A stretch of DNA of 64,000 nucleotides from Antedon mediterranea (Eukaryota; Animalia; Echinodermata), in contig NC_092677.1 of assembly GCF_964355755.1 (NCBI RefSeq), forward strand, positions 24,663,175 through 24,727,174, in the 5' to 3' direction. Within the stretch, counting starts at the first letter, position 1; the number at the start of each line of letters is the position of its first letter. Shown here piece by piece: positions 11,488 through 64,000 of the stretch. Made by a program: the position numbers and the translations under genes. The notes beneath the pieces were generated by a model. It was not told the DNA's origin, made no database searches, and saw only the letters and a list, made by a program, of their open reading frames with translations.

Positions 11488-11707
11488 CAAACTTGAGAGT
11501 GTACCGTACTGAATTAATATGTTGCAGCTGAAAAGTCATCATACATGAGTGGCACTCTCAGACATTATGTTCAAATTGTAATTGATACATTATGTTTGAA
11601 ATAATTATTATCGGATATTAGAAATACATATATATTACGGCATAAGTATAAAGATAATAAAGCCTAACTATGGAACTACTACTAACACTTTCTTTTACAG
11701 TAACATA

Positions 11708-33771: not shown

Positions 33772-36112
33772 CTATATATTTCCGTTGCCTTGGAATAAAG
33801 ACCATTGTGATTGTACGTAAGATGGCGGCGGTGATTCAATGGAAGACTTTATTCTATCGTCTATCATAACAGAAGCGTATGATGGGGGAAGGTCTTGAGC
33901 AGGCCCAGGGGATGATGACGTCACTACTGATAATACGTTGAGTTGATATTGGTACTCAACACCTTCGTTAATAACTCCTGTAGGCTGAGTTGTACTTGCA
34001 TTGTTTGTTACTGGTGACGTAGGCCTATTTCTCTTCTTGGCGCGGTGGCATATACAGACGTAAAAGCAAAAGTAAAAAGCGAAGATTGAAACAACAACAA
34101 TAATAACAAGAACAGTATTAATTCCACTATCATCATCAACAGCAGAATTACCAGAAGTATCATCTTCCAAGAAATCTTCATCAGAAGAATCGTCATCATC
34201 ATTCAATTCTAGGAATAAAGGTGATATATTGTGAATACAGTATGAAGTTCATATTAAATGGCTGTCAATCAATAAATGTTGGTATTAAAGGTTTTCAATC
34301 ACTTCCAATACATCCGTCATGGAGAAATAATGGTTACACACATTACATATCCGGGTGAAATTTTCCGTTCGGTATTTATTATAAATCCCACAACAATGGG
34401 TGTTTGTTTTTTTTTGTAAGATGTACTGTTACAGATTTAACTAACTTTATTGCACAGGTAGCCTACATTTCTATATATTGCTTAATAATTTGGATTTTCT
34501 GATGCATAAGATTCAAGATTCAAGATTCAAGAAATTTTATTTGTCCATGAAAATGGAAATTCACTTTGCTTGGTAGATTAAAACAACAATATTGCAACAA
34601 TTTAAAACGTGCAGTATTATAACAGACAATAGACAATATTTTGGGACAATTTCACCAGCGTTTCATAGGCGTCTTGTAAACTCATTCAACAAAGGCTTAC
34701 CTTCATAACACTTTAGTTTTACAGGATGGAAACAGTACGGATCTGTATACAAATTCTGCTTACAATATTTCAGACTATCTTCAAATCCATTACATGTAAA
34801 TTCAACCTTGTAGTTTACTGAACTGGCTGGCACGTTGTCGCTGTACAATTGATAGCCTCTTGAGTATCCAAGCTGCCTACAAGCTACTTGTGAGTTATCA
34901 CCTGTCCAATCATTTATGCAAATTCGACTCCACTCCCCTTCATACTTTATTTCTAACCAACCAATATTCGATGAATTTTCCGAGGAATCTCCAATAAGAC
35001 GTATTGTATAATTTTCAAATTGCTGTTCATCTAGACCAATTAAATTCAATAACCATACATTAAAAGAAAACAAATTGAAATAGTTTACAAACATAAGCTT
35101 CGACACATTTTTTTTAATTCCCTGGGGTTTTTTTTTTAACCATAGAGGAAAATATGTTCTCCTTAATGGAACAAGGCCAACAGCCATTAAGTCGCGTGCT
35201 ACAATGCATAGTGATACCGGACCGACGGACAGACCGACAGACAGACCGACCGACCGACCAACCTACCAACTGACCGAAATTACTGAACATGTTTAAAAAT
35301 GTTGAAATGTTTAAAAACATTTATATTTTTTAAATTTACGTGCGTGACGTGTTGTATAACGTAATTTCGAGTTGAAAAGTAAGTCAAGAAAACAGAAATC
35401 GGGCAAAAAGAGTGCGTAATAACATTTAACGCGCAGTGCGCTCGCAAAAATCTGCGCACTCATGGCAATTTTGTAAACGCTTAAAATTGCCTGAAACGTA
35501 CTCTTATTTCATCGAAAATAAATGTTGAAAATTTTAAGCGCGCGTACGCATGCGTTACATGCGCTACGCACGTAATTGTATTGCCATATGATGATTTATG
35601 CCCTGAAATTTATGAGTACCAAATTTTATTTAATTGTGATTCATGGTTGTGAAGATATGATTATAAACGTGATTTCGTTAAATCGTGCGTACACCGCGTA
35701 ATTTTTTATTGCGCACCGTGAAAACATAACCACATCGATTCCTGGCCATAAGGAATATACTGTGAAAAATTGACTTAGCCAGATTAAACTGATATCAAGA
35801 TAAGGTCAGAAAGCGATAAAACGCATAGTGATACCGGACCGACAGACAGACCGACAGACAGACCGACCGACCGACATAGTGAACTATAGAGTCGCGTCCA
35901 CGCGACTAAAAACGCAAGTAATTTGACAAACCACAAGCGAGTAGCTATAATAGCTATATGCCTACACGATTGTTAAATGTGTATGATTGAGTTTTGTTCC
36001 TCAAAATCATATCATCACTGAATTTATATCTATACATTATTTCCTGATCGACATTACCCGAGGTAACCAAAATGATACACGTCAAGGCGATTGTCCCTCT
36101 AATTAGAAGCAT
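33772..36112 (-). CDS. SRCR receptor gene 1: signal peptide - 1 group-A SRCR - acidic stalk - TM - cytoplasmic tail with two PPxY motifs
   Basis: Exons 36112-36058 (MLLIRGTIALTCIILVTS), 35030-34701 (SRCR, 6 Cys, VACRQLGY) and 34208-33772 (ELNDDDD...VLVIIVVVSIFAFYFCFYVCIC...DLPPSY...SPPPSY). All junctions are phase 1, GT-AG. A 5' non-coding exon donor lies at ~36404. Confidence 0.88.
35170..35910. mobile_element. Helentron/DINE-like non-autonomous element in SRCR gene 1 intron; short relatives at 24160-24262, 52741-52826, 54865-54935
   Basis: Subterminal inverted AGTCGCGTG...CACGCGACT, terminal hairpin AGTCGCGTCCACGCGACT and (GACC/GACA)n microsatellites. Inserted in an A-run that is empty in paralogous introns (e.g. 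43127-43160). Confidence 0.7.
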
Positions 36113-36864
36113 CTTTCACAAATAGGTCTGAAAAAGAAATCGAACAAATGTATTATAATGCAAGTAAACTAGTATGTTAATATCTACATTAGTGGAGGAT
36201 CTATCTTTATCTATCAATATATCTCTTTACTAAAAAGTACTTCAGATCTATACTTTTAGGACATTCTTTCTAAAGTCCCAAATTCAGTGTAGCAAAACAG
36301 AACAACGTGCAGGAGGTTGATCAAGTGACGCTGTCAGATTCAACCTTTCCAGCGGAATGATTTGCCCCGTTTAATATTATTTGAAAACGATCAACTTAAC
36401 TTACCGATGTTGTCTATGATGATCCTGTCCAAGTTGTGATACGGATACTTATTAGACTATAAGGCTTAGGCCTACATAGTTTCTAACGGTTCCTTATATC
36501 AGGAAAATATTGTTTTGTATGTTGTCGTCACTTTTACCTTGCATCCTGGTGATGACTTTACCATTGTGTTCCTTTGTTATATTATTCACAATCAAATCCT
36601 TGTTTAACGACTCATTGTGGTATTGTATGAATTCTTTATGAAAATATAAACACGTACATAACCGTTTATTGTATTATCTATTTCATAAACCTCTGACATT
36701 TAATATCCGAGTGTTACATTCAAACAGGATTTAAATACCAAAAAAAGACCGTCATATTTTCCATATTTCCTTTCCTATTTTAAATATTAATTTTTGGCAA
36801 ATTGCCAGCATTCATTTACATTGGCTATATATAATGTTCACATGACAAACATATTATTATACAC

Positions 36865-41923: not shown

Positions 41924-44900
41924 CTAACAACCGCCTCCACCACCGCCTCCACCACAATCTCCCCCACCACCACCTCCATAACCACCTCCATAACCACCTC
42001 CACCAGGCGTGAACCTTCTTCCTGCTGGTGAAGTAATTCTCTTATCGCTTATACAGGCGAAAAAGATCAAGAGAAAAGCAAAGATAAAAATACCAATAAA
42101 AATACTAATAATAGTAACTTCAGTAATTCCACTACCATAACTAATACTAGTAGGCCTATCACTAGTAGTAGATATACTAGTATCCAAGTAATCTTCATCA
42201 GAAAAATCGTCATCATCATTCAATTCTAGGAATAAAGGGGATAAAATATATTGTGAATACAGTATGAATACATATTAAATGGCTGTCAATCAATGCATGT
42301 TGGTATTAAAGGATTTCAATAACTTCAATACATCCGTTACATCCTGGAGAAATAATGGTTACACACATTACATCCGGGTGAAATTTTCCATTTGGCTTTT
42401 TTTTAATTATTATATGACACAACAATGGGTGATTTTGTTTTGTTAAAAGATGTACTGTTACAGATTAACTAACTTTATTGCACATGGTAGTCTAAATGTC
42501 TATTATATATCTATGGACCTATAATATATCTTAGTGATTTGGATTTTCTGATGCCCACCGTAATTTACCATTTTCGGACAGCGTTTCCATAGGCGTCTTA
42601 TAAACTCATGAATACAACAAGAACTTACCTTCATAACACCTTAATTTTACAGGACGGAAACAGAACGGATCGTTATACAACTTCTGCTTACAGTACTTCA
42701 GACTATCTTCAGATCCATTACATGTAAAGTCAAACCTGTAGTTTAAAGAACTGTCTGACCAGTATTTGTTTTGCAATTGATAGCCATTTGAGTATCCAAG
42801 CTGCCTACAAGCTACTTGTGAGTTGTCAGATGTCCAATCATTTTCGCAAATTTGACTCCATTCCTCTTCATACTTTATTTCTAACCAACCAATATTCGAG
42901 AAATATTTCGAGGAATCCCCAAAAAGACGTATTGTATAATTTTCAAACTGTTGTTCATCTAGACCAATAAAATGCAATAACCATACATTAAAAGAAAAAC
43001 ATTGAAATAACAGTTTACAAACATTATGCTTCAACACATTTCTTTAAAATTCCCTCTTTCACCTTTTTTTTACTCCATAATGTTGTTCCCACTAGGACGC
43101 AAAACCATGGAGGAAAATGTTTTTCCCTTCATGGAAAAAACGTAAAGTAATTTGACAAACCACACGCGATTAGCTAGAATAGAATGCCTACAAGAGTGGT
43201 ACTAATACAACAGTACATTGATTTTTTTTGTGTTAAGAAAGAAACATTACAATTATAATAATAATTGTTATTAGTATAATTCAGTATCAATAAGATATTG
43301 TATCTACTATTTTTTTTTGTAAATGATGAAAATAAAAAAATAATATTTACTGCAAATGGATAGAAAATAATGAGTTTTCGTACATAGTTTATACAGTTCC
43401 ATAAAATACTGTTAATTCTTCCCCACCCCACCCCTCCAACACCCCACCCCTCCAACAAACACCCAACACTTCTGAGTCATCACTACTTACGATAGATTGT
43501 TTTGTGTTATTATGTGTTGGATTGTATACATTCAAAGAAAGAAATAGAAATAATGCCTTTTGTTAAACCATGTGTTGTTATTAGTTGGGATGATTAATCT
43601 ACAAGAAGGAATTATCTAAATGTTGACCCCTTAAAAAATAAATCATTATAGTAAAAGTTATGTTGCATAGTTTCCATGTATGCACTTACATATTATAGCT
43701 AAAAAAACAAATACTCTGTCCTTTCCCGTTTTGTTCATTTACTAAAATCTACATTTTTTAGATAATGCTTTTTCATAAATCAGGGCAGAAATCTACGGGA
43801 GAAATTGTAAAGGTCCTGTTTACTACTGGTGACGTATTTCTCTTCTTGTCGGGATGGCTTATACAGGCGTAAATGAGCGTTCCATAGGCGTCTTATAAAC
43901 TAATGAATACAACAAGAACTTACATTCATAACACTTTAATTTTACAGGACGGAAACAGAACGAATCGATATACAACTTCTGCTTGCAGTACTTCAGACTA
44001 TCTTCAGATCCATTGCATGTAAAGTCAACCTTGTAGTTTAAAGAACTGTCTGACTCGTAGTCGCCGTACAATTGATAGCCTCTTGAGTATCCAAGCTGCC
44101 TACAAGCTACTTGTGCATTTTCAACTGCCCAATCCCTTATGCAAATTTGACTCCACTCCCCTTCATACTTTATTTCTAAGCGACCAATATTTGAAGAATT
44201 TTCCGAGGAATCTCCAATAAGACGTATTGTATAATTTTTAAATTGCTGTTCATCTAGACAAATAAAATTCAATAACCATACATTAAAAGAAAAATAAATA
44301 GAAATAACAGTTTACAAACATACGCTTCAAAACTTTTCTTTAAAATTCCGTCTTTCACCTTTTTTTACTCAATACCCTCTATAAATGTTGTTCACACTAG
44401 GACGCAAAACCGTAGAGGAAAATGGTTTTCCCCTTCATAGAAAAAACGCAAGTAATTTGACAAACCACAAGCCACTAGCCAGAATATATTTTTTTGTGGT
44501 AAGAAAGAAATATTAAAATAATAATAATAATAATTGTTATTAGTATAATAAAGTATCAATAAGATATTGTATCTAATATTTTTTTGTAAATGTTGATAAT
44601 AATAAAAAAAGATATTTACTGCAAATGGATAGAAAATGATGAGTTTTCGTACATAGTTAACACAGTTCTATTAAATACTGCTAAATCTTCCCCACCGCAC
44701 CCTCCAACACCCCTCACCCAACACTTCTGAGTCAAATAATATTCCCAATTCCTATCACTACTTACAATACATTGTTTTGTGTTATTATAATGTGTTGGAC
44801 TGTACATTCAAAGAAAGAAATAGAGATAATGCCTTTTGTTAAATCATTTGTTATTATTAGTTGGGATGATTAATCTACAAAAAGGAATTATCTAACTGTT

Positions 44901-45906
44901 GACCTCTTAAAAATAAATTATTAAAATAAAATTTAGGTTGCATAATTTCCAGGTATGTACGTATACATATTATAGCTAAAAACAAATACTCTGTCCTTAA
45001 GTTTTTTAGGATAAACTCAAACCCGTTTTGCTCATTTACTAAAATCTACATTTTTTTAGATAATGCATTTTCATAAATCTGGGCAGAAATCTACGGGAGT
45101 AATTGTAAAGGTCCTATTTGCTGCAGCTGGTAAGTATTTCTTTTCTGGCTTATAAGGCGTAAATGAGCGTTCCATAGGCGTCTTATAAACTAATGAATAG
45201 AACAAGAACTTACCTTCATAACACCTTAATTTTACAAGACGGAAACAGAACGGATCGATATACAACTTCTGCTTACAGTACTTCAGACTATCTTCAGATC
45301 CATTACATGTAAAGTCAACTATGTAGTGTAAAGAACTGTCTGACTCGTAGTCGCTGTACAATTGATAGCCATTTGAGTATCCAAGCTGCCTACAAGCTAC
45401 TTGTGAGTTTTCACCTGTCCAATCAGTTATGCAAATTTGACTCCATTCCCCTTGTCCTTCATATGTTATTTCTAACCGACCGATATTCGATGAATTTCCC
45501 GGGGAATCTCCAATAAGACGTAATGAATAATTTAATAATTGCTCTTCATCTAGACCAATAAAATTCAATACATTAACAGTTTAGGCTACAAACATACGCT
45601 TCAACACATTTGTTTTTAATTCCCTCTTTCACCGTGCCCTCTAAGGTTAGCTCCACTAGGAAGCAAAACCATGGAGGAAAATGTTTTTCTCCTTCATTGA
45701 AAGTAACAACCCACAAGCGAGTATTCAGAATAGCTATATGCCTATTATTATAAGAGTATTAAATGTATATGATTGAGTTTTGTTCCTCGAAATTGATTGG
45801 GCAAAATCATATCATCACTGAATTTATTTCTATAGGCCGTACATTATTTACCTGAGGTAACCAAAATGATACACGACAAGGCGATTGTCCCTCTAAACAG
45901 AAGCAT
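41924..45906 (-). CDS. SRCR receptor gene 2: signal peptide - 3 SRCR - acidic stalk - TM - short Gly-rich tail ending in Cys
   Basis: Exons 45906-45852, 45549-45214, 44253-43924, 42958-42629 and 42225-41924. All phase 1, open, GT-AG. Confidence 0.85.
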
Positions 45907-47709
45907 CTTTCACAAATATGTCTGAAACAAAATTAAATCGAACAAATGTAGTCTATTATAATTCAAGTATGTTAATATCTATCTATCCATGGAAGATCTA
46001 TCTTTATCTATCAATCTATCTCTTTACTAAAAGGTACTTCTATACTGTTACTTTAGTACATTCTTTCCAAAGTCCCAAATTTGTGTAGCAAAACAGAACA
46101 GTTGATCAAATTGACACTGTCAGATTCAACCTTTCCTCGTTTAATATGAAAACGATCAACTTACTTACCGATGTTGTCTATAATGATCCTATCTAAGTTG
46201 TGATACGGGTTCTTATTAGACCAGATTTATAGTTGTATGTTGTGTAAATCATGCACGTCATCACTTTTACCTTGTACTTGCATCCTGTTGATTATTTTCC
46301 ATTGTGTCCTTTTATTATATTATTTACCATCAAACCTGTCATGACGCATTTGGGAATTAAATAAATTCTTGATGGAAATATAAACCCGTACATAACCATT
46401 TATTGTATTCTCTATTTCATAAACCTCTGAAATTTAAAATCCGGTATTACATTTCAAAACAGAATTTAAGTATCAAACACTTGAAAAGTTAAGAATCACT
46501 CCGTCATACTTTCCACCAACATTTAATAATCTTCAAATTTCCTTTCCTAATCTAAATATTCATTTTTGGCAAATTGCCAAAAATAACCATGAGCGAATTC
46601 ATTCACAGTGGCAATCATGTTCACAGGACAAACATATACACAAGATACTCTGCATAAACAAAATATTGACCAGGTCTTTAAGAGTAGAGTTTAGTCACAG
46701 TCATGAGAACAAATCCGGACATCTGAAGGGAATTGAACCAAAGATCCTGGAATTGGTAGCCGAGCATATTAACCACAAAGCTACAACTACACTCCAAATA
46801 TGTTTTTTTAAACTTTATTTTTTCCAGATTTTAGGTAAGATGTTACGTAAATAAATTTGGATAACGCAAAGTCTGTCTATTTGAAAAGGTGCCAATTCCA
46901 TTTCTGAAAATACCATCTTTTTTTTTCTCCATAAAATATAAAATATCAAAATAATACATTAAAATAAAAGAGCAATATTGTGATTAAGAAAAACATGCAT
47001 CCAAAATTAACCCATAAAAGAAAAGTTCGTGCTTTTGAAATGTCTGTTTCATTTTAGGCTCCGTTGAACTGTCTTTCACAGGCGATTGCACGAAAGGTGG
47101 TGGCGATGATTCATATACAGATTTCAATTCTACGCCTTATCTCATAACAACATCGTATGAAGGAGGAGGAATGTCTTGAGAAGATTCCGGGTCTTGAGAA
47201 GAGCGAGGGTCTTGAGAGGCGCAAGGGTTTTGAGACGCGCCAGAAGAGGATGAAGTTGCTGAATTATCATTGGTTTGGTACTCAGCTCATTTGTTAACTA
47301 CTCCTCTACGATAATTTTCTTCTGCTGACGTAGGCCTACATTTCGTCCTGCATAATAGACAGACGAAACAGCACAAGCAAAGGGGAGAGTATATCATAAC
47401 CATACAAACAAAAACGAATCATCGTCATCATCCCAATCCCAACTTCCTTACTTGGTTTTATTAACTTGTTTATTGGCATAATATAACATTTTGTAATTTT
47501 ATCGATCTAGTTTGATCTTTCTAATCATCTTAAAAGCCTAATAAAAAAAACTTCAAATAGGTATACCATGTGTAACAATTGTTGATATAGTAAGTTTATA
47601 TAGGAAAAAATGGGCAGAATAGTAATCTATCCGTATGGTAGACCTACCCCGTAAACTATACTTTATGTGTATCCGATACAATACACTTATGCACATTATA
47701 CCAATGTGT

Positions 47710-48530
47710 GACATATTTATATCTGTAATTAGTTGTGCTACCCAATATTTATAATATGTAGCACACACTACGTGCATGTCATCCTACCAAAATACTATCC
47801 TTTTAATTAATGTGTAACATATTTATATCGGTAATTAGTTGTGCTACCCAATATTTATAATAGGTAGCACACACTACGTGCATGTCATCCTACCAAAATA
47901 CTATCCTTTTTATTAATGTGTAACATATTTATATCGGTAATTAGTTGTGCTACCCAATATTTATAATAGGTAGCACACACTACGTGCATGTCATCCTACC
48001 AAAATACTATCCTTTTTATTAATGTGTAACATATTTATATCGGTAATTAGTTGTGCTACCCAATATTTATAATAGGTAGCACACACTACGTGCATGTCAT
48101 CCTACCAAAATACTATCCTTTTTATTAATGTGTAACATATTTATATCGGTAATTAGTTGTGCTATCCAATATTTATAATAGGTAGCACACACTACGTGCA
48201 TGTCATCCTGCCAAAATACTATCCTTTTAATTAATGTGTAACATATTTATATCGGTAATTAGTTGTGCTACCCAATATTTATAATATGTAGCACACACTA
48301 CGTGCATGTCATCCTACCAAAATACTATCCTATTTTATAATGTGTAACATATTTATATCGGTAATCATTTGTGCTACACACACTTATGTGCATGTCATAC
48401 AAAAATACTATCCTTTTTGTTATTGTGTAAACTATTTATATCCGTGATGTGTTGTGCTACCAACATCTATAATGGGTAGCACACACTCATGTGAAATATT
48501 ATCAATGTGTAACATATTTATATCGGTAGG
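47710..48530. repeat. 106-bp minisatellite, ~7 copies (only ~2.5 copies at paralogous 40380-40690 and 60275-60590)
   Basis: aatgtgtaacatatttatatcggtaattagttgtgctaccc recurs at 47809, 47915, 48021 and onward. Confidence 0.92.
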
Positions 48531-49784
48531 CCCTACTTAGTTGTGCCCACTATTTTAGCGCCGTGCCTTTAGGAGGACGGAGGAGACTGTATCACGCGGA
48601 AGCTTATACTAATTACTACGGATGAAAACATGGGTATTTGGAAACTTGGTGACCCGCCTATTATACAAGATGATGTTGTCATCTAATTAGAAAAATTTAC
48701 GATCAACCTGAATGCCTAAGTCATTATAAACACATTTGGGTAATTGGTTTATGCCCTAGGTTAAAAAGTTCAACAGTCACGCTAAGCCAGGCTCCGGTCG
48801 ATAATGACGTATTTCTCTTCTTGCCGCGGTGGCATATTAGGGATATTTTGGTTCAGGTTTTTCAAAAGCGCCGAATTTGGTATACAAGTTGCCCACCCTA
48901 TACAAATTCAATTTTTGATGGGCGCCAACCCCTTGGGTCACCTAATTTGCATAATTTAAAGGAGATATTTTCGCGAGTTGCTTTTTAGGTCAAAATGTTC
49001 AGAACATAAACATTCCTCTTTACTCTAATAAAGTATTTTGGTAAAATTACCGGAAGTACCCTTTTTAACCTTTGACATGTTTTTCAGGCAAATTACCATA
49101 TCTCATTATTTGGTTGGCATGGAAACTTTATTTTGGTGCAGATTGTTCAAAATATATACCGTATGTTACTATTCTGCTTAATAGAATATTTTTCCAAATA
49201 GAAAATAGTAAATAGAAGTGTTTATGTTGAATATTTTGACACCTAAATCAACTCTCTATGTAGTAACTCTAAGTGGTTTTATAGATATCAAAAGATATCA
49301 AACTTAATGCAGTTGGCAATTGCACCTTAAAGGCCAAAGGCGTACTTCCGGACATTTTTTGAATAAAATGTTTCATTAAACTGAATTGTAACAAATATAT
49401 TCTGAACAATTTGGCACCAAAATAAACTGTCTATTACAACTGTTTACTGAGATATGCTTTCAAATATTGGTCAAGGGTTAAAAATGGTACTTCCGGTCAT
49501 TTTTTTCAAAAATACTTCATTATACTAAAAAGGAATGTTTATGTTCTGAACATTTTGACACATAAATTAACTCTTTATGACAAGCAGTTTTTCAGAGATA
49601 TAGAGTGTTTAAGCGAAAATATCCGCCAGTTTAAATTATGCAAATTAGGTGATCCAGGGGGTCATTTTGCTTGGCGCCCTTAAAAAATTGAATTCGTAGA
49701 TGGTGGGAAAATTATATATACCATTAACATATACCAAATGTTGTGCTTTCGGAAGAAACTGAACCAAAAACCCTTATTTCAGCC

Positions 49785-52700
49785 CTAACAACCGCCTCCA
49801 TCACCGCCTCCACCACCGCCTCCATAACCACCTCCATAACCACCTCCACCAGGCGTGCTCATTCTTCCTGCTGGTGAAGTAATTCTCTTATTGCTTACAC
49901 AGGCGAAAAAGATAGCGACAGCGAAGATACAAATACCAGTACAAATACTAATAATTATACTAACAATTCCACTATTATAACCGTCACAAGTATCCAAGCA
50001 ATCTTCATCAGAAAAAACGTCATCATCATCATTCAATTCTAGGAATAAAGGGGATATTATATATTGTGAATACAGTTGATATTAAATGGCTGTCAATCAA
50101 TGAATGTTGGTATTAAATGATTTCTATCACTTCAAATACATCCGTTATATCATGGAGATATAATTGTTACACTCATAACATACTCTGTTGAAATTTTCCG
50201 TTTGGCTTTTTTTTTTATTATTATAAATATGACACAACAATGGGTGTTTTTGTTTTGTTTAAAGATGTACTTTACAACTTTATTGCACAGGTAGCCTAAA
50301 TGTCTATTATATATCTGTGGACCTATAATATATCTTAGTGATTTGGATTTTCTGATGCCCACCGTAATTTACCATTTTCGGACAGCGTTCCATAGGCGTC
50401 TTATAAACTCATGAATACAACAAGAACTTACCTTCATAACACCTTAATTTTACAGGACGGAAACAGAACGAATCGATATACAAATTCTGCTTACAGTACT
50501 TCAGACTATCTTCAAATCCATTACATGTAAAGTCAACCTTGTAGTTTAAAAAACTGTCTGACTTGTAGTCTTCGTACAATCGCTCGCCTCTTGAGTATCC
50601 AAGCTGCCTACAAGCTACTTGTGAGTTTTCACCTGTCCAATCATTTATGCAAATTTGACTCCACTCCCCTTCATACTTTATTTCTAACCAACCAATATTT
50701 GATAAAGGATCCGAGGAATATCCAATAAGACGTATTGAATAATTTTGCTCTTCATCTAGACCAATAATATTCAAAAACCATACATTAAAAGAAAAATCAA
50801 TTGAAATAACATTTCTTTAAAATTCCCTCTTTCACATTTTTTTTACTCCGTGCCCTCCATAAATGCTGTTCCCACTAGGACGCCAAACCAAGTAGGAAAC
50901 TGTTTTTCCCCTTCAAGTAAAACACGCAAGTAATTTGACAAACCACACGCGAGTGGTCAGAATAGCTATGCCTACAAGAGTATTTACTATTAAATGTACT
51001 AATAATACAGCATCAATGATGTTTTTGTGGTAAGAAAGAAATATTGAAATAATAATAATAATTGTTATTAGGCCTATACACATATTGCCTGCTTAGAGGT
51101 TAAATATAAGATTTGACATCCCGAGGGAATGATAATATTTCCTCGAACAAAATATCATTCCACGAGGGATGTAAAATCATATATTTTACCGATAAAAAAG
51201 GCGATCTGCTGGGTCGGGTAGCTAGACTAGGCCTCCTTGTTTGTACGGTATAACAATAAGCGTGCCTAGACACCTTACCTTGCGAAGAAAAATATACAGA
51301 TAATTACTAGTTAATGATTCCTTGCAATAAAATATTCACTTAGGCTTAGGTCGTTTAAATTAACAGAAGAATTTTCATCAATAAGCCTACAATAATAATA
51401 ATTAGGTAGGCCTAGGCCTAGGCCGAAAAAATAATAATTCGTCTTCTCTTCGAGCCGAATCACCGGATGTTCAGCGCGCCGTGAGTACCAGGTTACTACC
51501 GTGAGTATTGACCAATCACAAACAGTATTTCGTCGCGTCTATAGAGAGGGCCAATAACAATAAATAGTTTAGTTGATTATTTTCTTCAAGCAAGTTGCGT
51601 GGCGCAGCGGGTAAAACGTTGTCTTGTGATGATGTGGACCAATTTTCGGGAGTTCAAGTCTCAGTAGATGACTTTTGCTTATTTATCGCCAAACGCGAGT
51701 GTTGCAACACGAAAATTACACAGTCAATATCATCGTACTCGAGAGTTTACTGGATGTTTAATGACAGGGACGCGAAAATTACTCAGTCAATATCATCGTA
51801 CTCGAGGAAATATACGATTAGTTGGGATGATTAATCTACAAGAAGGAATTACCTAAATTTTGACCTCTTAAAAAGTAAATCATTATAATACGATTTCCAT
51901 TATACACTTATACATATTATAGCTAAAAAAAACAAAGTTTTTCAGGATAAACTCAAACACGTTTTGCTCATTTACTCAAATCTACATTTTTTTTAGATAA
52001 TGCATTTTCATAAATCAGGGCAGAAACCTATTATTGTAAACGTTGTTTGCTGCTGGTGAAGTATTTCTCTTCATGTCGGGATGGCTAATACAGGCGTAAA
52101 TGGGCGTTCCATAGGCGTCTTATAAACTAATGAATACAACAAGAACTTACCTTCATAACACCTTAATTTTACAGGATAGGAACAGTACCGATCTGTATAC
52201 AAATTCTGCTTACAGTACTTCAGACTATCTTCAAATCCATTACATGTAAAGTCAACCCTGTAGTGTAAAGAACTGTCTGACTCGTACAATCGCTCGCCTC
52301 TTGAGTATCCAAGCTGCCTACAAGCTACGTGTGAGTTTTCACCTGTCCAATCATTTATGCAAATTTGACTCCACTCGCCTTCATACGTTATTTCTAACCG
52401 ACCAATATTTGATGAATGTTCCGAGGAATCTCCAATAAGACGTATTGAATAATTTTGTAATTGCTGATCAGCTAGATCAATAACCATACATTAAAAGAAA
52501 AATAAATTGAAATAACAGTTTACAAACACACGCTTCAAAACATTTCTTTAAAATTACCTTTTTTACCTTTTTTACGCCGTGCCGTTCCCATTAGGACTTT
52601 AAAAATAAATCATTATAGTAAAAGTTATGTTGCATAATTTCTATGTATGCACTTATACATTATTATAGCTAAAAAACAAATACTATGTCCTTAAGTTTGT

Positions 52701-55700
52701 TAGGATAAACCCAAACACGTTTTGCTCATTTACTCAAATCGCAACGCGACTCTACAACTCACTATGTCGGTCGGTTGGTAAACACTAACTTGAGCACGCG
52801 ACTGCAGCTATGTATATGACCTTGTTTGTGATAATGCCTTTTCATAAATCAGGGCAAAAATCTAAGTGAGTAATTGTAAAGGTCCTGTTTGCTGCTGGTG
52901 AAGTATTTCTCTTCTTGTCGGGGTGGCTTATAAGGTGTAAAAGAGCGTTCCATAGGCGTCTTATAAACTAATGAATACAACAAGAACTTACCTTCATAAC
53001 ACCTTAATTTTACAGGATCAAAACAGTGCCAATCGTTATACAACTTCTGCTTACAGTACTTCAGACTATCTTCAAATCCATTACATGTAAAGTCAAACCT
53101 GTAGTTTAAAGAACTGTCTGACCAGTAGTTGTTTTGCAATTGATAGCCATTTGAGTATCCAAGCTGCCTACAAGCTACTTGTGAGTTGTCACCTGTCCAA
53201 TAAGTTTTGCAAATTTGACTCCATTCCCCTTCATACTTTATTTCTAACCAACCAATATTCGAGGAATATTTCGAGGAATCCCCAAAAAGACGTATTGTAT
53301 AATTTTCAAACTGTTGTTCATCTAGACCAATTAAAATGCAATAACCATACATTAAAAGAAAAACATTGAAATAACAGTTTACAAACATTATGCTTCAACA
53401 CATTTCTTTAAAATTCCCTCTTTCACCTTTTTTTTACTCCATAATGTTGTTCCCACTAGGACGCAAAACCATGGAGGAAAATGTTTTTCCCTTCATGGAA
53501 AAAACGTAAAGTAATTTGACAAATCACACGCGATTAGCTAGAATAGAATGCCTACAAGAGTGGTACTAATACAACATTACATTGATTTTTTTTTCTGTGT
53601 TAAGAAAGAAACATTACAATTATAATAATAATTGTTATTAGTATAATTCAGTATCAATAAGATATTGTATCTACTATTTTTTTTGTAAATGCTGAAAATA
53701 AAAAAATAATATTTACTGCAAATGGATAGAAAATAATGAGTTTTCGTACATAGTTTATACTGTTAATTCTTCCCCATCCCACCCCTCCAACACCCCTCAC
53801 CTCACGATAGATTGTTTTGTGTTATTATGTGTTGGATTGTATACATTCAAAGAAAGAAATAGAAATAGAAATAATGCCTTTTGTTAAACCATGTGTTGTT
53901 ATTAGTTGGGATGATTAATCTACAAGAAGGAATTATCTAAATGTTGACCCCTTAAAAAATAAATCATTATAGTAAAAGTTATGTTGCATAATTTCCATGT
54001 ATGCACTTCTACATATTATAGCTAAAAAAACAAATACTCTGTACTTTCCCGTTTTGTTCATTTACTAAAATCTACATTTTTTAGATAATGCTTTTTCATA
54101 AATCAGGGCAGAAATCTACGGGAGTAATTGTAAAGGTCCTGTTTACAACTGGTGAAGTATTTCTCTTCTTGTCGGGGTGGCTTATACAGGCGTAAATGGG
54201 CGTTCCATAGGCGTCTTATAAACTAATGAATACAACAAGAACTTACCTTCATAACACTTTAATTTTACAGGACGGAAACAGAACGAATCGATATACAACT
54301 TCTGCTTGCAGTACTTCAGACTATCTTCAGATCCATTACATGTAAAGTCAACCTTGTAGTTTAAAGAACTGTCTGACTCGTAGTCGCCGTACAATTGATA
54401 GCCTCTTGAGTATCCAAGCTGCCTACAAGCTACTTGTGCATTTTCAACTGCCCAATCCCTTATGCAAATTTGACTCCACTCCCCTTCATACTTTATTTCT
54501 ATCCGACCAATATTCGATGAATTGTCAGGGGAATCCCCAAAAAGACGTATTGAATAATTTCCGAATTTCTGTTCATCTAGACCAATAAATGCAATAACCA
54601 TACATTAAAAGAAAAATAAATTTAAATAACAGTTTACAAATATACGCTTCAAAACATTTCTTTAAAATTCCCTCTTTCACCTTTTTTTTTTTACTCAATA
54701 CCCTCTATAAATGTTGTTCCCACTAGGACGGAAAACCGTGGAGGAAAATGGTTTTCCCCTTCATGGAACCACAAGCCAGTAGCCAGAATAGCTATATGCC
54801 TACAAGAGGTACTAATACAACATCACATTGATTTTTGTATGGTAAGAAAGAAATATTAAAATAAAGCTCACTATGTCGGTCGGTTGGTAAACACTAAATT
54901 GAGCACGCGACTGCAGCCATGTATATGGCCTTGTTTGTGATAATGCCTTTTCATAAATCAGGGCAGAAATCTAAGTGAGTAATTGTAAAGGTCCTGTTTG
55001 CTGCTGGTGAAGTATTTCTCTTCATGTCGGGATGGCTAATACAGGCGTAAGTTAGCGTTCCATAGGCGTCTTATAAACTAATGAATACAACAAGAACTTA
55101 CCTTCATAACACCTTAATTTTACAGGATAGGAACAGTACCGATCTGTATACAAATTCTGCTTACAGTACTTCAGACTATCTTCAAATCCATTACATGTAA
55201 AATCAACCCTGTAGTGTAAAGAACTGTCTGACTCGTAGTCGCTGTACAATTGATAGCCAATTGAATTGAATCCAAGCTGCCTACAAGCTACTTGTGAGTT
55301 TTCATCTGACCAGGAAGCAACTCCCTGATCTGACCAATCAAATAAGCACATTTGACTCCACTCCCCTTCATACTTTATTTCTAAGCGACCAATATTCGAG
55401 GAATATTCCGAGGAATCTCTAACAAGACGTATTGTATAATTTTCAACTTGCTGTTCATCTAGACAAATAAAATTAAATAACCATACATTAAAAGAAAAAT
55501 AAATTGAAATAACAGTTTACAAACATTTGCTTCAACACATTTATTTAAAATTCCGTCTTTCACCTTTTTTTACTCCATACCCTCTATAAATGTTGTTCCC
55601 ACTAGGACGCAAAACCGTGGAGGAAAATGGTTTTCCCCTTCATGGAAAAAACGCAAGTAATTTGACAAACCACAAGCCAGTAGCCAGAAAATATATGCCT

Positions 55701-58470
55701 ACCAGAGTATTATATGTACTAATCTAACATAACATTGATATATTTTTTTGTGGTAAGAAAGAAATATTAAAATAATAATAATAATAATTGTTATTAGTAT
55801 AATTCAGTATCAATAAGATATTGTATCTACTATTTCTGTGTACATGCTGATGGATAATAAAAAAATACTATTTACTGCAAATGGATAGCAAATGATGAGT
55901 TTTCGTACATAGTTAATACAGTTCTATTAAATACTGCTAAATCTTCCCCACCCCACCCTCCAACACCCCTCACCCAACACTTCTGGGTCAAATAATATTC
56001 CCAATTCCTATCACTACTTACGATAGATTGTTTTGTGTTATTATAATGTGTTGGATTGTATACATTCAAAGAAAGAAATAGAAATAATGCCTTTTGTTAA
56101 ATTATGTGTTGTTATTAGTTGGGATGATTAATCTACAAGAAGGAATTATCTAAATGTTGACCCCTTAAGAAATAAATCATTATAATAAAATTTATGTTGC
56201 ATAATTTCCATGTATGCACTTCTACATATTATAGCTAAAAAACACATAATCTCTCCTTCAGTTTTTTAGGATAAACTCAAACCCGTTTTGCTCAATTACT
56301 AAAATCTACATTTTTTTAGATAATGCCTTTTCATAAATCAGGGCAGAAATCTACGGGAGAAATTGTAAAGGTCCTGTTTACTACTGGTGACGTATTTCTC
56401 TTCTTGTCGGGGTGGCTTATACAGGCGTAAATGGGCGTTCCATAGGCGTCTTATAAACTAATGAATACAACAAGAACTTACATTCATAACACTTTAATTT
56501 TACAGGACGGAAACAGAACGAATCGATATACAACTTCTGCTTGCAGTACTTCAGACTATCTTCAGATCCATTGCATGTAAAGTCAACCTTGTAGTTTAAA
56601 AAACTGTCTGACTCGTAGTCGCCGTACAATTGATAGCCTCTTGAGTATCCAAGCTGCCTACAAGCTACTTGTGCGTTTTCAACTGCCCAATCCCTTATGC
56701 AAATTTGACTCCACTCCCCTTCATACTTTATTTCTAAGCGACCAATATTTGAAGAATTTTCCGAGGAATCTCCAATAAGACGTATTGTATAATTTTTAAA
56801 TTGCTGTTCATCTAGACAAATAAAATTCAATAACCATACATTAAAAGAAAAATAAATAGAAATAACAGTTTACAAACATACGCTTCAAAACTTTTCTTTA
56901 AAATTCCGTCTTTCACCTTTTTTTACTCAATACCCTCTATAAATGTTGTTCACACTAGGACGCAAAACCGTAGAGGAAAATGGTTTTCCCCTTCATAGAA
57001 AAAACGCAAGTAATTTGACAAACCACAAGCTACTAGCCAGAATATATTTTTTTGTGGTAAGAAAGAAATATTAAAATAATAATAATAATAATTGTTATTA
57101 GTATAGTTCAGTATCAACAAGATATTGTATCTAATATTTCTGTGTAAATGCTGATGGATAATAAAAAAATACTATTTACTGCAAATGGATAGCAAATGAT
57201 GAGTTTTCGTACATAGTTAATACAGTTCTATTAAATACTGCTAAATCTTCCTCACCCCACCCTCCAACACCCCTCACCCAACACTTCTGAGTCAAATAAT
57301 ATTCCCAATTCCTATCACTACTTACAATACATTGATTTGTGTTATTATAATGTGTTGGATTGTATACATTCAAAGAAAGAAATAGAAATAATGCCTTTTG
57401 TTAAATCATTTGTTATTATTAGTTGGGATAATTAATCTACAAAAAGGAATTATCTAAATGCTGACCTCTTAAAAAAAACATTATTAAAATAAAATTTAGG
57501 TTGCATAATTTCCAGGTATGTAGGCCTACGTATACATATTATAGCTAAAAAACAAATACTCTGTCCTTAAGTTTTTTAGGATAAACTCAAACCCGTTTTG
57601 CTCATTTACTAAAATCTACATTTTTTTAGATAATGCCTTTTCATAAATCAGGGCAGAAATCTACGGGAGTAATTGTAAAGGTCCTGTTTGCTGCTGGTAA
57701 GTATTTCTCTTCATGTCGGGGTGGCTTATACAGGCGTAAATGGGCGTTCCATAGGCGTCTTATAAACTAATGAATACAACAAGAACTTACCTTCATAACA
57801 CTTTAATTTTACAGGACGGAAACAGAACGAATCGATATACAACTTCTGCTTGCAGTACTTCAGACTATCTTCAGATCCATTACATGTAAAGTCAAACCTG
57901 TAGTGTAAAGAACTGTCGTAGTTGCTGTACAATTGATAGCCATTTGAGTATCCAAGCTGCCTACAAGCTACTTGTGAGTTTTCACCTGTCCAATCAGTTA
58001 TGCAAATTTGACTCCACTCCCCTTGTCCTTCATATGTTATTTCTAACCGACCGATATTCGATGAATTTCCCGAGGAATCTCCAATAAGACGTAATGAATA
58101 ATTTAATAATTGCTCTTCATCTAGACCAATGAAATTCAATACATTAACAGTTTAGGCTACAAACATACGCTTCAACACATTTGTTTTTAATTCCCTCTTT
58201 CACCGTGCCCTCTAAGGTTAGCTCCACTAGGAAGCAAAAACATGGAGGAAAATGTTTTTCTCCTTCATTGAAAGTAACAACCCACAAGCGAGTATTCAGA
58301 ATAGCTATATGCCTATTATTATAAGAGTATTAAATGTATATGATTGAGTTTTGTTCCTCGAAATTGATTGGGCAAAGTCATATCATCACTGAATTTATTT
58401 CTATACATTATTTACCTGAGGTAACCAAAATGATACACGTCAAGGCGATTGTCCCTCTAAACAGAAGCAT
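49785..58470 (-). CDS. SRCR receptor gene 3: signal peptide - 7 SRCR - acidic stalk - TM - short Gly-rich tail ending in Cys
   Basis: Exons 58470-58416, 58120-57791, 56811-56482, 55458-55102, 54576-54247, 53321-52992, 52471-52151, 50755-50432 and 50038-49785. Each SRCR exon length is a multiple of 3, phase 1-1, with 6 Cys. Confidence 0.85.
51072..51820. mobile_element. Insertion in SRCR gene 3 intron (related to 1265-1540; contains tRNA-like box at ~51598-51665)
   Basis: Absent from paralogous introns. Shares sequence with 1265-1540 and has a 64-bp internal direct repeat at 51710-51805. Confidence 0.6.
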
Positions 58471-61400
58471 CTTTCACAAATATGTCTGAAACAAAATTAA
58501 ATCGAACAAATGTAGTCTATTATAATTCAAGTATGTTAATATCTATCTATCCATGGAAGATCTATCTTTATCTATCAATCTATCTCTTTACTAAAAGGTA
58601 CTTCTATACTGTTACTTTAGTACATTCTTTCCAAAGTCCCAAATTTGTGTAGCAAAACAGAACAGTTGATCAAATTGACACTGTCAGATTCAACCTTTCC
58701 TCGTTTAATATGAAAACGATCAACTTACTTACCGATGTTGTCTATAATGATCCTATCTAAGTTGTGATACGGGTTCTTATTAGACCAGATTTATAGTTGT
58801 ATGTTGTGTAAATCATGCACGTCATCACTTTTACCTTGTACTTGCATCCTGTTGATTATTTTCCATTGTGTCCTTTTATTATATTATTTACCATCAAACC
58901 TGTCATGACGCATTTGGGAATTAAATAAATTCTTGATGGAAATATAAACCCGTACATAACCATTTATTGTATTCTCTATTTCATAAACCTCTGAAATTTA
59001 AAATCCGGTATTACATTTCAAAACAGAATTTAAGTATCAAACACTTGAAAAGTTAAGAATCACTCCGTCATACTTTCCACCAACATTTAATAATCTTCAA
59101 ATTTCCTTTCCTAATCTAAATATTCATTTTTGGCAAATTGCCAAAAATAACCATGAGCGAATTCATTCACAGTGGCAATCATGTTCACAGGACAAACATA
59201 TACACAAGATACTCTGCATAAACAAAATATTGACCAGGTCTTTGGGAGTAGAGTTTAGTCACAGTCATGAGAACAAATCCGGACATCTGAAGGGAATTGA
59301 ACCAAAGATCCTGGAATTGGTAGCCGAGCATATTAACCACAAAGCTACAACTACACTCCAAATATGTTTTTTTAAACTTTATTTTTTCCAGATTTTAGGT
59401 AAGATGTTACGTAAATAAATTTGGATAACGCAAAGTCTGTCTATTTGAAAAGGTGCCAATTCCATTTCTGAAAATACCATCTTTTTTTTTCTCCATAAAA
59501 TATAAAATATCAAAATAATACATTAAAATAAAAGAGCAATATTGTGATTAAGAAAAACATGCATCCAAAATTAACCCATAAAAGAAAAGTTCGTGCTTTT
59601 GAAATGTCTGTTTCATTTTAGGCTCCGTTGAACTGTCTTTCACAGGCGATTGCACGAAAGGTGGTGGCGATGATTCATATACAGATTTCAATTCTACGCC
59701 TTATCTCATAACAACATCGTATGAAGGAGGAGGAATGTCTTGAGAAGATTCCGGGTCTTGAGAAGAGCGAGGGTCTTGAGAGGCGCAAGGGTTTTGAGAC
59801 GCGCCAGAAGAGGATGAAGTTGCTGAATTATCATTGGTTTGGTACTCAGCTCATTTGTTAACTACTCCTCTACGATAATTTTCTTCTGCTGACGTAGGCC
59901 TACATTTCGTCCTGCATAATAGACAGACGAAACAGCACAAGCAAAGGGGAGAGTATATCATAACCATACAAACAAAAACGAATCATCGTCATCATCCCAA
60001 TCCCAACTTCCTTACTTGGTTTTATTAACTTGTTTATTGGCATAATATAACATTTTGTAATTTTATCGATCTAGTTTGATCTTTCTAATCATCTTAAAAG
60101 CCTAATAAAAAAAACTTCAAATAGGTATACCATGTGTAACAATTGTTGATATAGTAAGTTTATATAGGAAAAAATGGGCAGAATAGTAATCTATCCGTAT
60201 GGTAGACCTACCCCGTAAACTATACTTTATGTGTATCCGATACAATACACTTATGCACATTATACCAATGTGTGACATATTTATATCTGTAATTAGTTGT
60301 GCTACCCAATATTTATAATAGGTAGCACACACATACGTGCATGTCATCCTACCAAAATACTATCCTATTTTATAATGTGTAACATATTTATATCGGTAAT
60401 TAGTTGTGCTACCCAATATTTATAATAGGTAGCACACACTTATGTGCATGTCATCCTACCAAAATACTATCCTTTTTGTTATTGTGTAAACTATTTATAT
60501 CCGTGATGTGTTGTGCTACCAACATCTATAATGGGTAGCACACACTCATGTGAAATATTATCAATGTGTAACATATTTATATCGGTAGGCCCTACTTAGT
60601 TGTGCCCACTATTTTAGCGCCGTGCCTTTAGGAGGACGGAGGAGACTGTATCACGCGGAAGGTTATACTAATGACTACGGATGAAAACATGGGTATTTGG
60701 AAACTTGGTGACCCGCCTATATATACAAGATGATGTTGTTATCTAATTAGCAAAATGTACGATCAACCTGAATGCCTAAGTCATTATAAACACATTTGGG
60801 TAATTGGTTTATGCCCTAGGCTAAAAAGTTCAACAGTCACGCTAAGCCAGGCTCCGGCCGCGGTGGCATATTATTGGAGTCGGTTAGGGATATTTTGGTT
60901 CAGTTTTTCCAAAAGCGCCGAATTTGGTATACAAGTTGCCCACCCTATACAAATTCAATTTTTGATGGGCGCCAACCCCTTGGATCACCTAATTTGCATA
61001 ATTTAAAGCGGATATTTTCGCGAGTTGATTTTTAGCTTAAAATGTTGAGAACATAAACATTCCTTTTTACTCTAATAAAGTATTTTGGTAAAATTATCGG
61101 AAGTACCATTTTTAACTTTTGACCTGTTTTTCAGGCAAATTATCATATCTTATTATTTGGTTGGCGTGGAAACTTTATTTTGGTGTCAGATTGTTCAAAA
61201 TATATACCGTATGTTACTATTCTGTTTAATAGAAGATTTTTCCAAATAGAAAATAGTAAATAGAAATGTTTATGTTCTGAATATTTTGACACCTAAATCA
61301 ACTTAATGCAGTTGGCAATTGCACCTTAAAGGTTAAAGGCGTATTTCCGGATATTTTTGGATGAAATTTTTCATTAAACTGAATAGTAACAAATATATTC

Positions 61401-61776
61401 TGAACAAATTGACACCAAAATAAACTGTCTATGACAACGGTTTACTGAGATACCGTATGCTTTCAAATATGGGTCAAAGGTTAAAAATGGTACTTCCGGT
61501 CATTTTTTTCAAAAATACTTCATTATACTAAAAAGGAATGTTTATGTTCTGAACATTTTGACACATAAATTAACTCTTTATGACAAGCAGTTTTTCAGAG
61601 ATATAGAGTGTTTAAGCGAAAATATCCGCCAGTTTAAATTATGCAAATTAGGTGATCCGGGGGTCATTTTGCTTGGTGCCCTTAAAAAATTGAATTCGTA
61701 GATGGTGGGCAAATTATACCATATACCAAAATTGGTGCTTTCGGAAGAAACTGAACCAAACACCCTTATTTCAGCC

Positions 61777-64000
61777 CTAACAACCGCCTCCACCACCGCC
61801 TCCATCACCGCCTCCACCACAATCTCCCCCACCACCTCCATAACCACCTCCACCAGGCGTGAACCTTCTTCCTGCTGGTGAAGTAATTCTCTTATCGCTT
61901 ATACAGGCGAAAAAGATCAAGAGAAAAGCAAAGATAAAAATAATAATAAAAATAATAATAACTTCAGTAATTCTACTACTATAACTAATACTAGTAGGCC
62001 TACCACTAGTAGTAGATATACTAGTATCCAAGTAATCTTCATCAGAAAAATCGTCATCATCATTCAATTCTAGGAATAAAGGGGATAAAATATATTGTGA
62101 ATACAGTATGAATACATATTAAATGGCTGTCAATCAATGCATGTTGGTATTAAAGGATTTCAATAACTTCAATACATCCGTTACATCCTGGAGAAATAAT
62201 GGTTACACACATTACATCCGGGTGAAATTTTCCATTTGGCTTTTTTTTAATTATTATATGACACAACAATGGGTGATTTTGTTTTGTTAAAAGATGTACT
62301 GTTACAGATTAACTAACTTTATTGCACATGGTAGCCTAAATGTCTATTATATATCTATGGACCTATAATATATCTTAGTGATTTGGATTTTCTGATGCCC
62401 ACCGTAATTTACCATTTTCGGACAGCGTTTCCATAGGCGTCTTATAAACTCATGAATACAACAAGAACTTACCTTCATAACACCTTAATTTTACAGGACG
62501 GAAACAGAACGAATCGATATACAAATTCTGCTTACAGTACTTCAGACTATCTTCAAATCCATTACATGTAAAGTCAAACCTGTAGTTTAAAGAACTGTCT
62601 GACCAGTATTTGTTTTGCAATTGATAGCCATTTGAGTATCCAAGCTGCCTACAAGCTACTTGTGAGTTGTCACCTGTCCAATAATTTATGCAAATTTGAC
62701 TCCATTCCTCTTCATACTTTATTTCTAAGCGACCAATATTCGAGGAATATTTCGAGGAATCCCCAAATAGACGTATTGTATAATTTTCAAATTGCTGTTC
62801 ATCTAGACAAATAAAATTCAATAACCATACATTAAAAGAAAAATAAATTGAAATAAGAGTTTACAAACATAAGCTTCAACACATTTCTTTAAAATTCCCT
62901 CTTTCACCCTTGTTTACTCCATAATGTTGTTCCCACTAGGACGCAAAACCATGGAGAAAAATGTTTTTCCCTTCATGGAAAAAACGTAAAGTAATTAGAC
63001 AAACCACACGCGATTAGCTAGAATAGAATGCCTACAAGAGTGGTACCAATACAACGTTACATTGATTTTTTTTTGTGTTAAGAAAGAAACATTAAAATTA
63101 TAATAATAATTGTTATTAGTACAATTCAGTATCAATAAGATATTGTATCTACTATTTATTTTTGTAAATGCTGATAATAAAAAAATAATATTTACTGCAA
63201 ATGGATAGCAAATAATGGGTTTTCATACATAGTTTACAGTTCCATAAAATACTGTTAATTCTTCCCCACCCCACCCCTCCAACAAACACCCAACACTTCT
63301 GAGTCATCACTACTTACGATAGATTGTTTTGTGTTATTATGTGTTGGATTGTATACATTCAAAGAAAGAAATAGAAATAATGCCTTTTGTTAAACCATGT
63401 GTTGTTATTAGTTGGGATGATTAATCTACAAGAAGGAATTATCTAAATGTTGACCCCTTAAAAAATAAATCATTATAGTAAAAGTTATGTTGCATAATTT
63501 CCATGTATGCACTTCTACATATTATAGCTAAAAAAACAAATACTCTGTACTTTCCCGTTTTGTTCATTTACTAAAATCTACATTTTTTAGATAATGCTTT
63601 TTCATAAATCAGGGCAGAAATCTACGGGAGTAATTGTAAAGGTCCTGTTTACTACTGGTGAAGTATGTCTCTTCTTGTCGGGGTGGCTTATACAGGCGTA
63701 AATGGGCGTTCCATAGGCGTCTTATAAACTAATGAATACAACAAGAACTTACATTCATAACACTTTAATTTTACAGGACGGAAACAGAACGAATCGATAT
63801 ACAACTTCTGCTTGCAGTACTTCAGACTATCTTCAGATCCATTGCATGTAAAGTCAACCTTGTAGTTTAAAAAACTGTCTGACTCGTAGTCGCCGTACAA
63901 TTGATAGCCTCTTGAGTATCCAAGCTGCCTACAAGCTACTTGTGCATTTTCAACTGCCCAATCCCTTATGCAAATTTGACTCCACTCCCCTTCATACTTT
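61777..64000 (-). CDS. SRCR receptor gene 4 (5' part beyond window): >=2 SRCR - TM - Gly-rich tail
   Basis: Exons >64000-63753, 62802-62473 and 62069-61777; closely similar to gene 2. Confidence 0.82.

What the first reader, a model, noticed from the sequence alone, without database searches (positions are those of the whole stretch)
43790..63710. Every inter-SRCR intron carries a decapitated TM/tail exon: multi-domain receptors assembled from duplicated whole-gene units
Seen: about 45 bp after each internal SRCR donor, at the motif gacgcctatggaacgc, the sequence jumps into PIYACISHPDKKRNTSPAANRTFTITPVDFCPDL* or a close variant. This matches the juxtamembrane part of the real terminal exons (FFACISDKRITSPAGRRFTP; FYVCICHRAKKRNRPTSP), with the shared DNA gctggtgaagta-ttctctt...gcttatacaggcg. 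It occurs at ~43790-43880, 45080-45165, 52030-52110, 52850-52945, 54105-54205, 54960-55055, 56340-56435, 57650-57745 and 63610-63705. After the last SRCR of each gene, the full intron, acceptor and TM are intact. Inference: one deletion removed the acceptor, stalk and TM from a single-SRCR gene, fusing it to its downstream neighbour, and the [SRCR + dead tail] cassette was then amplified. This is a readable mechanism of domain accretion.
Basis: partly seen in the sequence, partly recalled or inferred. Interest (0 to 1): 0.8.

Follow-up and report, generated by a model that had tools for sequence, protein, structure and literature searches.

The report
Fossil membrane-anchor scraps in receptor introns
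In a cluster of scavenger-receptor (SRCR) genes, likely from a feather star, all nine introns between repeated domains carry the same short scrap of the membrane-anchor exon, likely left by one deletion that let a one-domain receptor grow into multi-domain ones; this is an unusually clear example of a known way that proteins gain repeats.

Summary
All 9 of 9 inter-SRCR introns leave the normal SRCR-to-transmembrane (TM) intron at +47/48 and jump into the TM exon at the end of the TM helix. All nine also share a T at +21, where the three most closely related intact introns have G. This points to one deletion of about 0.47-0.59 kb, later amplified.

Up to ~500 nt with no homologue in the window follow, then the 3' part of the signal-peptide intron. 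No promoter, 5'UTR exon or signal-peptide exon was found. So 'whole-gene units fused by one deletion' is not shown: a second junction is needed, and partial duplication fits at least as well.

The genes look live. They read open as 7-, 3- and 1-SRCR receptors, and an RNA-like run shows SRCR-to-SRCR joints that a DNA-like run lacks. The SRCR exons are mosaic, and 4 of 9 relics are frameshifted. The process is known; the breakpoint fossil is unusually clear.

The parts
61777..64000 (-). G1, 3' part: SRCR exon (window edge to 63753), SRCR exon 62802-62473, TM/Gly-tail exon 62069-61777; the gene continues beyond the window
   Evidence: database model P0002 joins these exons
49785..58733 (-). G2: 5'UTR exon donor 58733; signal-peptide exon (ATG 58470); seven SRCR exons starting at 58120, 56811, 55458, 54576, 53321, 52471, 50755; TM/Gly-tail exon 50038-49785; 877 aa, no internal stop
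   Evidence: model P0001 joins the last five SRCRs and the TM
41924..46169 (-). G3: 5'UTR exon donor 46169; signal-peptide exon 45921-45852; SRCR exons 45549-45214, 44253-43924, 42958-42629; TM/Gly-tail exon 42225-41924; 451 aa, open
   Evidence: splice joints in run X1
33772..36405 (-). G4: single-SRCR gene (signal peptide ATG 36112, SRCR 35030-34701, TM exon 34208-33772 with the PPSY-motif tail); 274 aa, open; likely closest to the ancestral state
   Evidence: tail shared with outgroup receptors
63602..63702 (-). TM-exon relic in the G1 intron; homologous part about 63702-63646
57641..57740 (-). relic after G2 SRCR1 (frameshifted)
56331..56431 (-). relic after G2 SRCR2 (best match to the G4 TM exon: 81% over 63 columns)
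54951..55050 (-). relic after G2 SRCR3
54096..54196 (-). relic after G2 SRCR4
52842..52943 (-). relic after G2 SRCR5 (frameshifted); this SRCR groups with the terminal SRCRs of G1 and G3
52008..52100 (-). relic after G2 SRCR6 (frameshifted; longest match to the Gly-tail exon, to +115)
45071..45165 (-). relic after G3 SRCR1 (most decayed)
43773..43873 (-). relic after G3 SRCR2
43200..43770 (-). example of the cassette's middle segment (about 500 nt in six introns, shortened or interrupted in three); no homologue elsewhere in the window
   Evidence: nhmmer, both strands; probes
42959..43200 (-). example of the cassette's last segment: the 3' ~220-240 nt of the signal-peptide-to-SRCR intron, starting 65-110 nt downstream of the signal-peptide donor

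Best explanation
The nine intronic blocks are the same ~60-nt scrap of the transmembrane exon, likely left by one ~0.5-kb deletion in a duplicated part of a one-SRCR receptor gene, and the resulting cassette was likely multiplied by unequal crossing-over. Step 1 (inferred): a stretch from inside the signal-peptide intron to just past the TM exon was duplicated in tandem, giving signal peptide-SRCR-TM...SRCR-TM. The first TM exon would still end the protein. Step 2 (breakpoint shown, order inferred): a deletion from intron +48 to the end of the TM helix removed that exon's acceptor, stalk and TM. The upstream SRCR donor then had only the next SRCR acceptor to use, in the same phase (1-1). Step 3 (mosaics shown, crossover inferred): the 0.85-1.7 kb cassette was copied and shuffled between genes, giving 7, 3 and at least 2 domains. 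The products are predicted to be single-pass cell-surface receptors; immune recognition is likely by analogy and was not tested. The relic itself is likely neutral.
For: One breakpoint in 9 of 9 introns, plus T at intron +21 in all nine against G in the three intact Gly-tail introns. The relics form one group apart from the intact TM exons, with moderate support (89/87). Cassette anatomy. All 12 whole SRCR exons are multiples of three and free of stops despite five different lengths, while 4 of 9 relics are frameshifted. Run X1 shows joints at the predicted exon ends. Three have GT-AG ends: 46169/45921, 45852/45549 and 45852/44253. One joins an SRCR end to an SRCR start (43924/44253, 89 letters on the shorter side). 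A second SRCR-to-SRCR joint has as its first base the C found only in exon 52471. A loose end at the TM acceptor reads as the SRCR end. None of these is listed for run X2. Mosaic exons: neighbouring sites are less incompatible than in shuffles (5 of 5000), and nearest relatives change along the exon. A terminal-type SRCR sits internally at 53321 (100/99). The two nearest relatives with the longer PY-motif tail, G4 and P0003, have one SRCR each.
Against: The ~500-nt middle has no known source, so the original duplication junction is not mapped. A whole-gene tandem pair with a later intergenic deletion gives the same product, and whole-gene tandem copies do exist here. X1 is only guessed to be RNA. 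It is contigs from another sample, each SRCR-to-SRCR joint rests on one contig, and near-identical paralogs prevent assigning most joints to a gene; no record spans a whole transcript. Both database models lack the 5' part (P0001 starts inside SRCR3). The relic clade is below the tool's strong-support threshold, and the SRCR tree does not place G4 as outgroup. Mean dN 0.115 against dS 0.111 over 66 pairs does not by itself show purifying selection.
Confidence: 0.55

Rival explanations
1. One reading: two whole neighbouring single-SRCR genes were fused by at least two deletions. One removed the acceptor, stalk and TM of gene 1; another removed everything from its 3' flank to the signal-peptide intron of gene 2. 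Amplification followed.
For: The cluster is made of whole-gene tandem copies with shared spacers (94-95% identity over 4.5-5.6 kb). The middle segment could be leftover 3' or intergenic DNA. Fusion of adjacent duplicates is reported as the main route of domain gain in animals (PMC2926785, passages).
Against: No signal-peptide exon, 5'UTR exon or promoter, or G4 3' flank is detected in 9 of 9 introns. The best signal-peptide score (4 of 100 shuffles) lies inside a high-copy repeat. The model needs one more event than partial duplication. The present spacers (49785 to 45549, 41924 to 35030) are 4-7 kb and do not match the middle.
Confidence: 0.3
2. The relic was inserted: a piece of TM exon with flanking DNA landed in an SRCR-TM intron by a transposon-linked or repair-templated rearrangement, rather than being left by a clean deletion.
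For: A similar 33-nt piece of the same exon sits beside an inverted-repeat element at 48837-48805 and is 30 of 33 identical to one relic. The locus is rich in repeats.
Against: The order intron start, then TM-exon 3' part, is colinear with the intact gene, as a deletion predicts. The rest of the TM intron is absent from all nine introns. The middle is not high-copy in the DNA-like run.
Confidence: 0.08
3. The relic is functional: read-through of the donor into it makes secreted, shorter SRCR isoforms.
For: The +21 T removes the in-frame TGA that ends read-through in the Gly-tail introns; read-through adds 16-47 residues. Some X1 contigs cover the relic.
Against: Read-through lengths and frames differ between copies, and 4 of 9 relics are frameshifted. 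An AATAAA/ATTAAA occurs in only 2 of 6 long introns, far downstream. X1 also has contigs lying wholly in other introns.
Confidence: 0.07

Closest known systems
Domain gain by joining exons of adjacent duplicated genes (Buljan et al. 2010, PMC2926785; passages read)
   Same: Duplication precedes the gain; exons are joined once the intervening signals are lost; recombination between copies assists.
   Different: Here the same domain is repeated, the lost element is an internal TM exon, and the breakpoint survives in every intron. The paper calls direct examples of such mechanisms rare. A whole second gene is not shown here.
'Bridge' intron of the Barbatia two-domain globin (Naito et al. 1991; only the reference title seen; content recalled)
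   Same: An inter-domain intron built from the 3' end of one copy and the 5' intron of the next.
   Different: A soluble protein with two domains; no TM exon had to be disabled, and there was no later cassette amplification (recalled).
Tandem single-exon SRCR genes of sea urchin (PMC10855680; passages) and SRCR-repeat copy-number variation in DMBT1 (PMC9038570; search listing)
   Same: One SRCR per exon, tandem clusters, domain-level duplication, variable domain number.
   Different: No TM-exon relic in the introns is mentioned in the passages seen.
Crinoid SRCR-TM-PY-motif receptors P0003, P0004 (Antedon mediterranea) and P0006, P0007 (Anneissia japonica)
   Same: Related TM and tail with LPPSY/PPPY-type motifs; related SRCR (67% to P0003, up to 46% to P0004).
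   Different: P0004, P0006 and P0007 carry several older, divergent SRCRs per unit; the window's domain best matches the second-last of a unit. G1-G3 have recent near-identical repeats and a Gly-rich tail.

Membership tests
SRCR domain (Pfam PF00530), six-cysteine type | Profile score above the curated cut-off | tested here: met
   3 of 3 exons scanned score 50.7-60.9 bits against a cut-off of 26.1
SRCR domain (Pfam PF00530), six-cysteine type | Six conserved cysteines (group A label recalled) | tested here: met
   six Cys columns in 12 of 12 whole exons
Type I membrane SRCR receptor | Signal peptide, SRCR(s), one TM and a tail in one open frame | tested here: met
   G2 877 aa, G3 451 aa, G4 274 aa with no internal stop; signal peptide and TM judged from hydrophobic sequence, no predictor run
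Type I membrane SRCR receptor | Spliced multi-domain transcript | tested here: inconclusive
   junction types seen in one RNA-like run, two of them SRCR-to-SRCR; no full-length transcript
Type I membrane SRCR receptor | Ligand binding or immune role | not testable with these tools
   analogy only
Fusion of adjacent whole genes | Remnant of the upstream gene's 3' end in the joining intron | tested here: met
   TM-exon relic in 9 of 9 introns
Fusion of adjacent whole genes | Remnant of the downstream gene's promoter, first exons or intergenic DNA | tested here: not met
   none detected in 9 of 9 introns; deletion could have removed it, so this lowers but does not exclude fusion
Tandem exon-cassette amplification by unequal crossing-over | Symmetric-phase exons with homologous flanking introns | tested here: met
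Tandem exon-cassette amplification by unequal crossing-over | Mosaic copies and hybrid genes | tested here: met
   5 of 5000 shuffles; G3 matches G2 at its 5' end and G1 at its 3' end; gene conversion not excluded
Tandem exon-cassette amplification by unequal crossing-over | Copy-number polymorphism between individuals | not testable with these tools
   only contigs were available

The most novel reading that the evidence does not exclude
A single datable deletion that disabled an internal membrane-anchor exon switched this receptor family from duplicating as genes to duplicating as domains. The 30-kb locus would preserve every stage: the one-domain ancestral form, the fused form, and 3- and 7-domain products still exchanging cassettes. 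If such relics are common in young repeat receptors, scanning introns for scraps of a gene's own terminal exon would be a general way to read how domain repeats began.
Probability: 0.3. Interest if true: 0.62.

Novelty: new variant of a known kind. Interest (0 to 1): 0.42.

Why it matters
How repeated extracellular domains first arise in membrane receptors is usually inferred from protein architectures. Here the enabling lesion is mapped to within a few bases and tags every later copy. The locus shows that the duplicated unit was larger than the domain exon and included the anchor exon, which then had to be switched off. It is a clean test case for SRCR receptor diversification in echinoderms and suggests a simple genome-wide screen. 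It does not reveal a new molecular system.

Tried and rejected
1. No whole genome is held, so paralogs outside the window could not be read as DNA and the middle segment could not be traced.

2. Source of the middle segment: nhmmer on both strands of the window found no source. Of 72 probe-by-intron tests, one beat all 100 shuffles (21 of 25 nt, 57339-57315 against the G4 tail 33945-33921) and two were reached by 1 of 100 (an ATT-rich run resembling the TM codons). All three are treated as chance or low complexity. A 140-column AT-rich match reaching to 36041, near the G4 signal-peptide donor, was not reproduced against G3 and is not relied on.

3. No WxxW-domain remnant of P0003 was found in the window.

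4. No microhomology beyond 1-2 nt is evident at the breakpoint (read by eye).

5. No RNA holder is listed on record. The wide lay showed no splice joints among the 15 rows displayed (91 hidden). Contig depths were not used to rank parts of genes.

6. The X1 joint from the signal-peptide exon to 44253 could be G4, another paralog or exon skipping; this is unresolved.

7. P0005, P0008 and P0009 were set aside as weak or unrelated hits.

8. Earlier scan findings: none returned.

9. Paper searches returned no report of this locus or of TM-exon relics in SRCR introns. Most subscription papers are not searched, and no supplements were read. The Naito 1991 paper is not held.

10. Structure prediction was not run, because it does not bear on the question.
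Full report
Setting. The window is AT-rich eukaryotic DNA, and no whole genome is held. A search with one SRCR exon returned two database models encoded by this window (P0001, P0002) and P0003, named Antedon mediterranea, all with the same longest-contig length. The species is therefore likely this feather star (inference).

Genes. Thirteen SRCR exons lie on the minus strand (12 whole, 1 cut by the window edge); the three scanned pass Pfam's cut-off. I found three signal-peptide exons, three 5'UTR donors and four TM acceptors. These define G1 (3' part only), G2 (7 SRCRs), G3 (3) and G4 (1). The exon chains read open: 877, 451 and 274 aa. G1-G3 end in a Gly-rich tail and G4 in a longer PPSY-motif tail.

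Observation. In 9 of 9 inter-SRCR introns the first 47-48 nt are those of the intact SRCR-TM intron. After up to three junction bases, the sequence continues as the TM exon from the last TM codons. The match beats all 200 shuffles in 9 of 9 against the G3 exon and in 8 of 9 against the G4 exon. The missing piece is 472-590 nt against the four intact genes and holds the acceptor, the acidic stalk and the TM. All nine share T at +21, where the three intact Gly-tail introns have G. They form one group in a tree (89/87, moderate). A single origin is the simplest reading.

Homology ends at +104..115; later segments score as chance. Six introns then carry about 500 nt with no homologue elsewhere in the window, and three carry shortened or interrupted versions. 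The last 220-240 nt (less in one intron) are the 3' part of the signal-peptide intron. Probes for the signal-peptide exon, 5'UTR exon and promoter, the rest of the TM intron and the G4 3' flank found nothing in any intron. Three of 72 probe tests were nominally high and are short or low-complexity. So the repeated unit is part of a gene, and a second junction is required. Partial duplication needs two events; whole-gene fusion needs three, and gives the same product.

Ancestry of the relic. It keeps a 9-nt stretch present in G4 and lost in the Gly-tail exons, and shares a 6-nt gap with the Gly-tail exons (alignments). It likely derives from the ancestor of the G1-G3 TM exon.

Are the genes spliced? 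No run is on record as RNA. Run X1, guessed to be RNA, shows GT-AG joints at the predicted UTR-to-signal and signal-to-SRCR boundaries. It also shows an SRCR-end to SRCR-start joint (one contig, 89 letters on the shorter side), a second such joint whose first base matches only exon 52471, and SRCR letters at the TM acceptor. None is listed for X2. Paralogy prevents assigning most joints to one gene, and no record covers a whole transcript. P0001 joins five SRCRs across four relic introns but starts inside SRCR3; its support is unknown.

Amplification. Terminal and internal SRCRs do not form separate groups: the internal exon 53321 groups with the terminal exons 62802 and 42958 (100/99). Exons are mosaic (40 informative sites; 5 of 5000 shuffles as low). 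G3 matches G2 at its 5' end and G1 at its 3' end, at about 94% over 4.5-5.6 kb. Mean dN (0.115) is about equal to mean dS (0.111) over 66 pairs, with six invariant cysteines and no frameshift in 12 of 12 exons. By contrast, 4 of 9 relics are frameshifted within about 100 nt. This fits coding exons under mixed selection and a decaying relic, but diversifying selection is not shown.

Polarity. G4 and P0003 have one SRCR and the PY-motif tail. More distant receptors with the same tail (P0004, P0006, P0007) carry several older, divergent SRCRs per unit, and the window's domain best matches the second-last. The family likely shrank to one SRCR and then re-expanded.

Comparison with what is known. 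Joining exons of adjacent duplicates is reported as the main route of domain gain in animals, with few direct examples (PMC2926785, passages). Single-exon SRCRs duplicating at domain level are described in sea urchin (PMC10855680, passages). Unequal crossing-over is cited for multi-domain globins (PMC4503718, passages). The Barbatia bridge intron is the nearest precedent (title seen, content recalled). Nine searches found no description of this locus.

Verdict. A real and clear fossil of domain accretion by a known class of process. Interest 0.42.

Noticed in passing
window 41940-40970 (also about 61790-60870 and 49800-48840): A high-copy element of about 0.9-1 kb with inverted arms of about 400 nt (67-70% identical) follows each Gly tail. 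In G3 its arm includes the last codons and the stop of the tail, and just beyond the far arm the ancestral TM exon sequence resumes (33 nt at 48837-48805, shorter at 40965 and 60875). The Gly tail may have arisen when this element cut off the PY-motif tail.
   Followed up: partly
window 60010-59614, 47450-47050, 40100-39704 (-): A second kind of relic downstream of each Gly-tail gene: a whole TM plus PY-motif tail exon with stops and frameshifts, similar to the tails of G4 and P0003.
   Followed up: partly
window 11600-16286 (+): NLR-like gene: weak death-effector domain, NACHT domain (E 6e-16) and repeat-rich C-terminal ORFs in several overlapping frames, possibly frameshifted.
   Followed up: no
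window 2489-3595 (-), 6693-7447 (+), 37737-38150 (-): Retroelement fragments; the first has a reverse-transcriptase Pfam hit; the other two were judged by eye.
   Followed up: no
window 47700-48530, 60267-60640, 40369-40700: Tandem repeat with a unit of about 106 nt, in different copy numbers in the three spacers.
   Followed up: no
window 63753, 56482, 43924: One SRCR type ends in T instead of G before the GT donor; model P0002 still splices it.
   Followed up: partly
window 52740-52835, 54880-54935, 51070-51800: High-copy insertions in three G2 introns, linked with loss or interruption of the middle segment; the relic is kept in each.
   Followed up: partly
P0004, P0007: These database models seem to join two neighbouring receptors (signal peptide and tail repeated internally), possibly annotation merges of tandem genes.
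   Followed up: no
window 25107-26278 and 3720-4489: Tandem arrays with units of about 169 nt and 31/62 nt.
   Followed up: no
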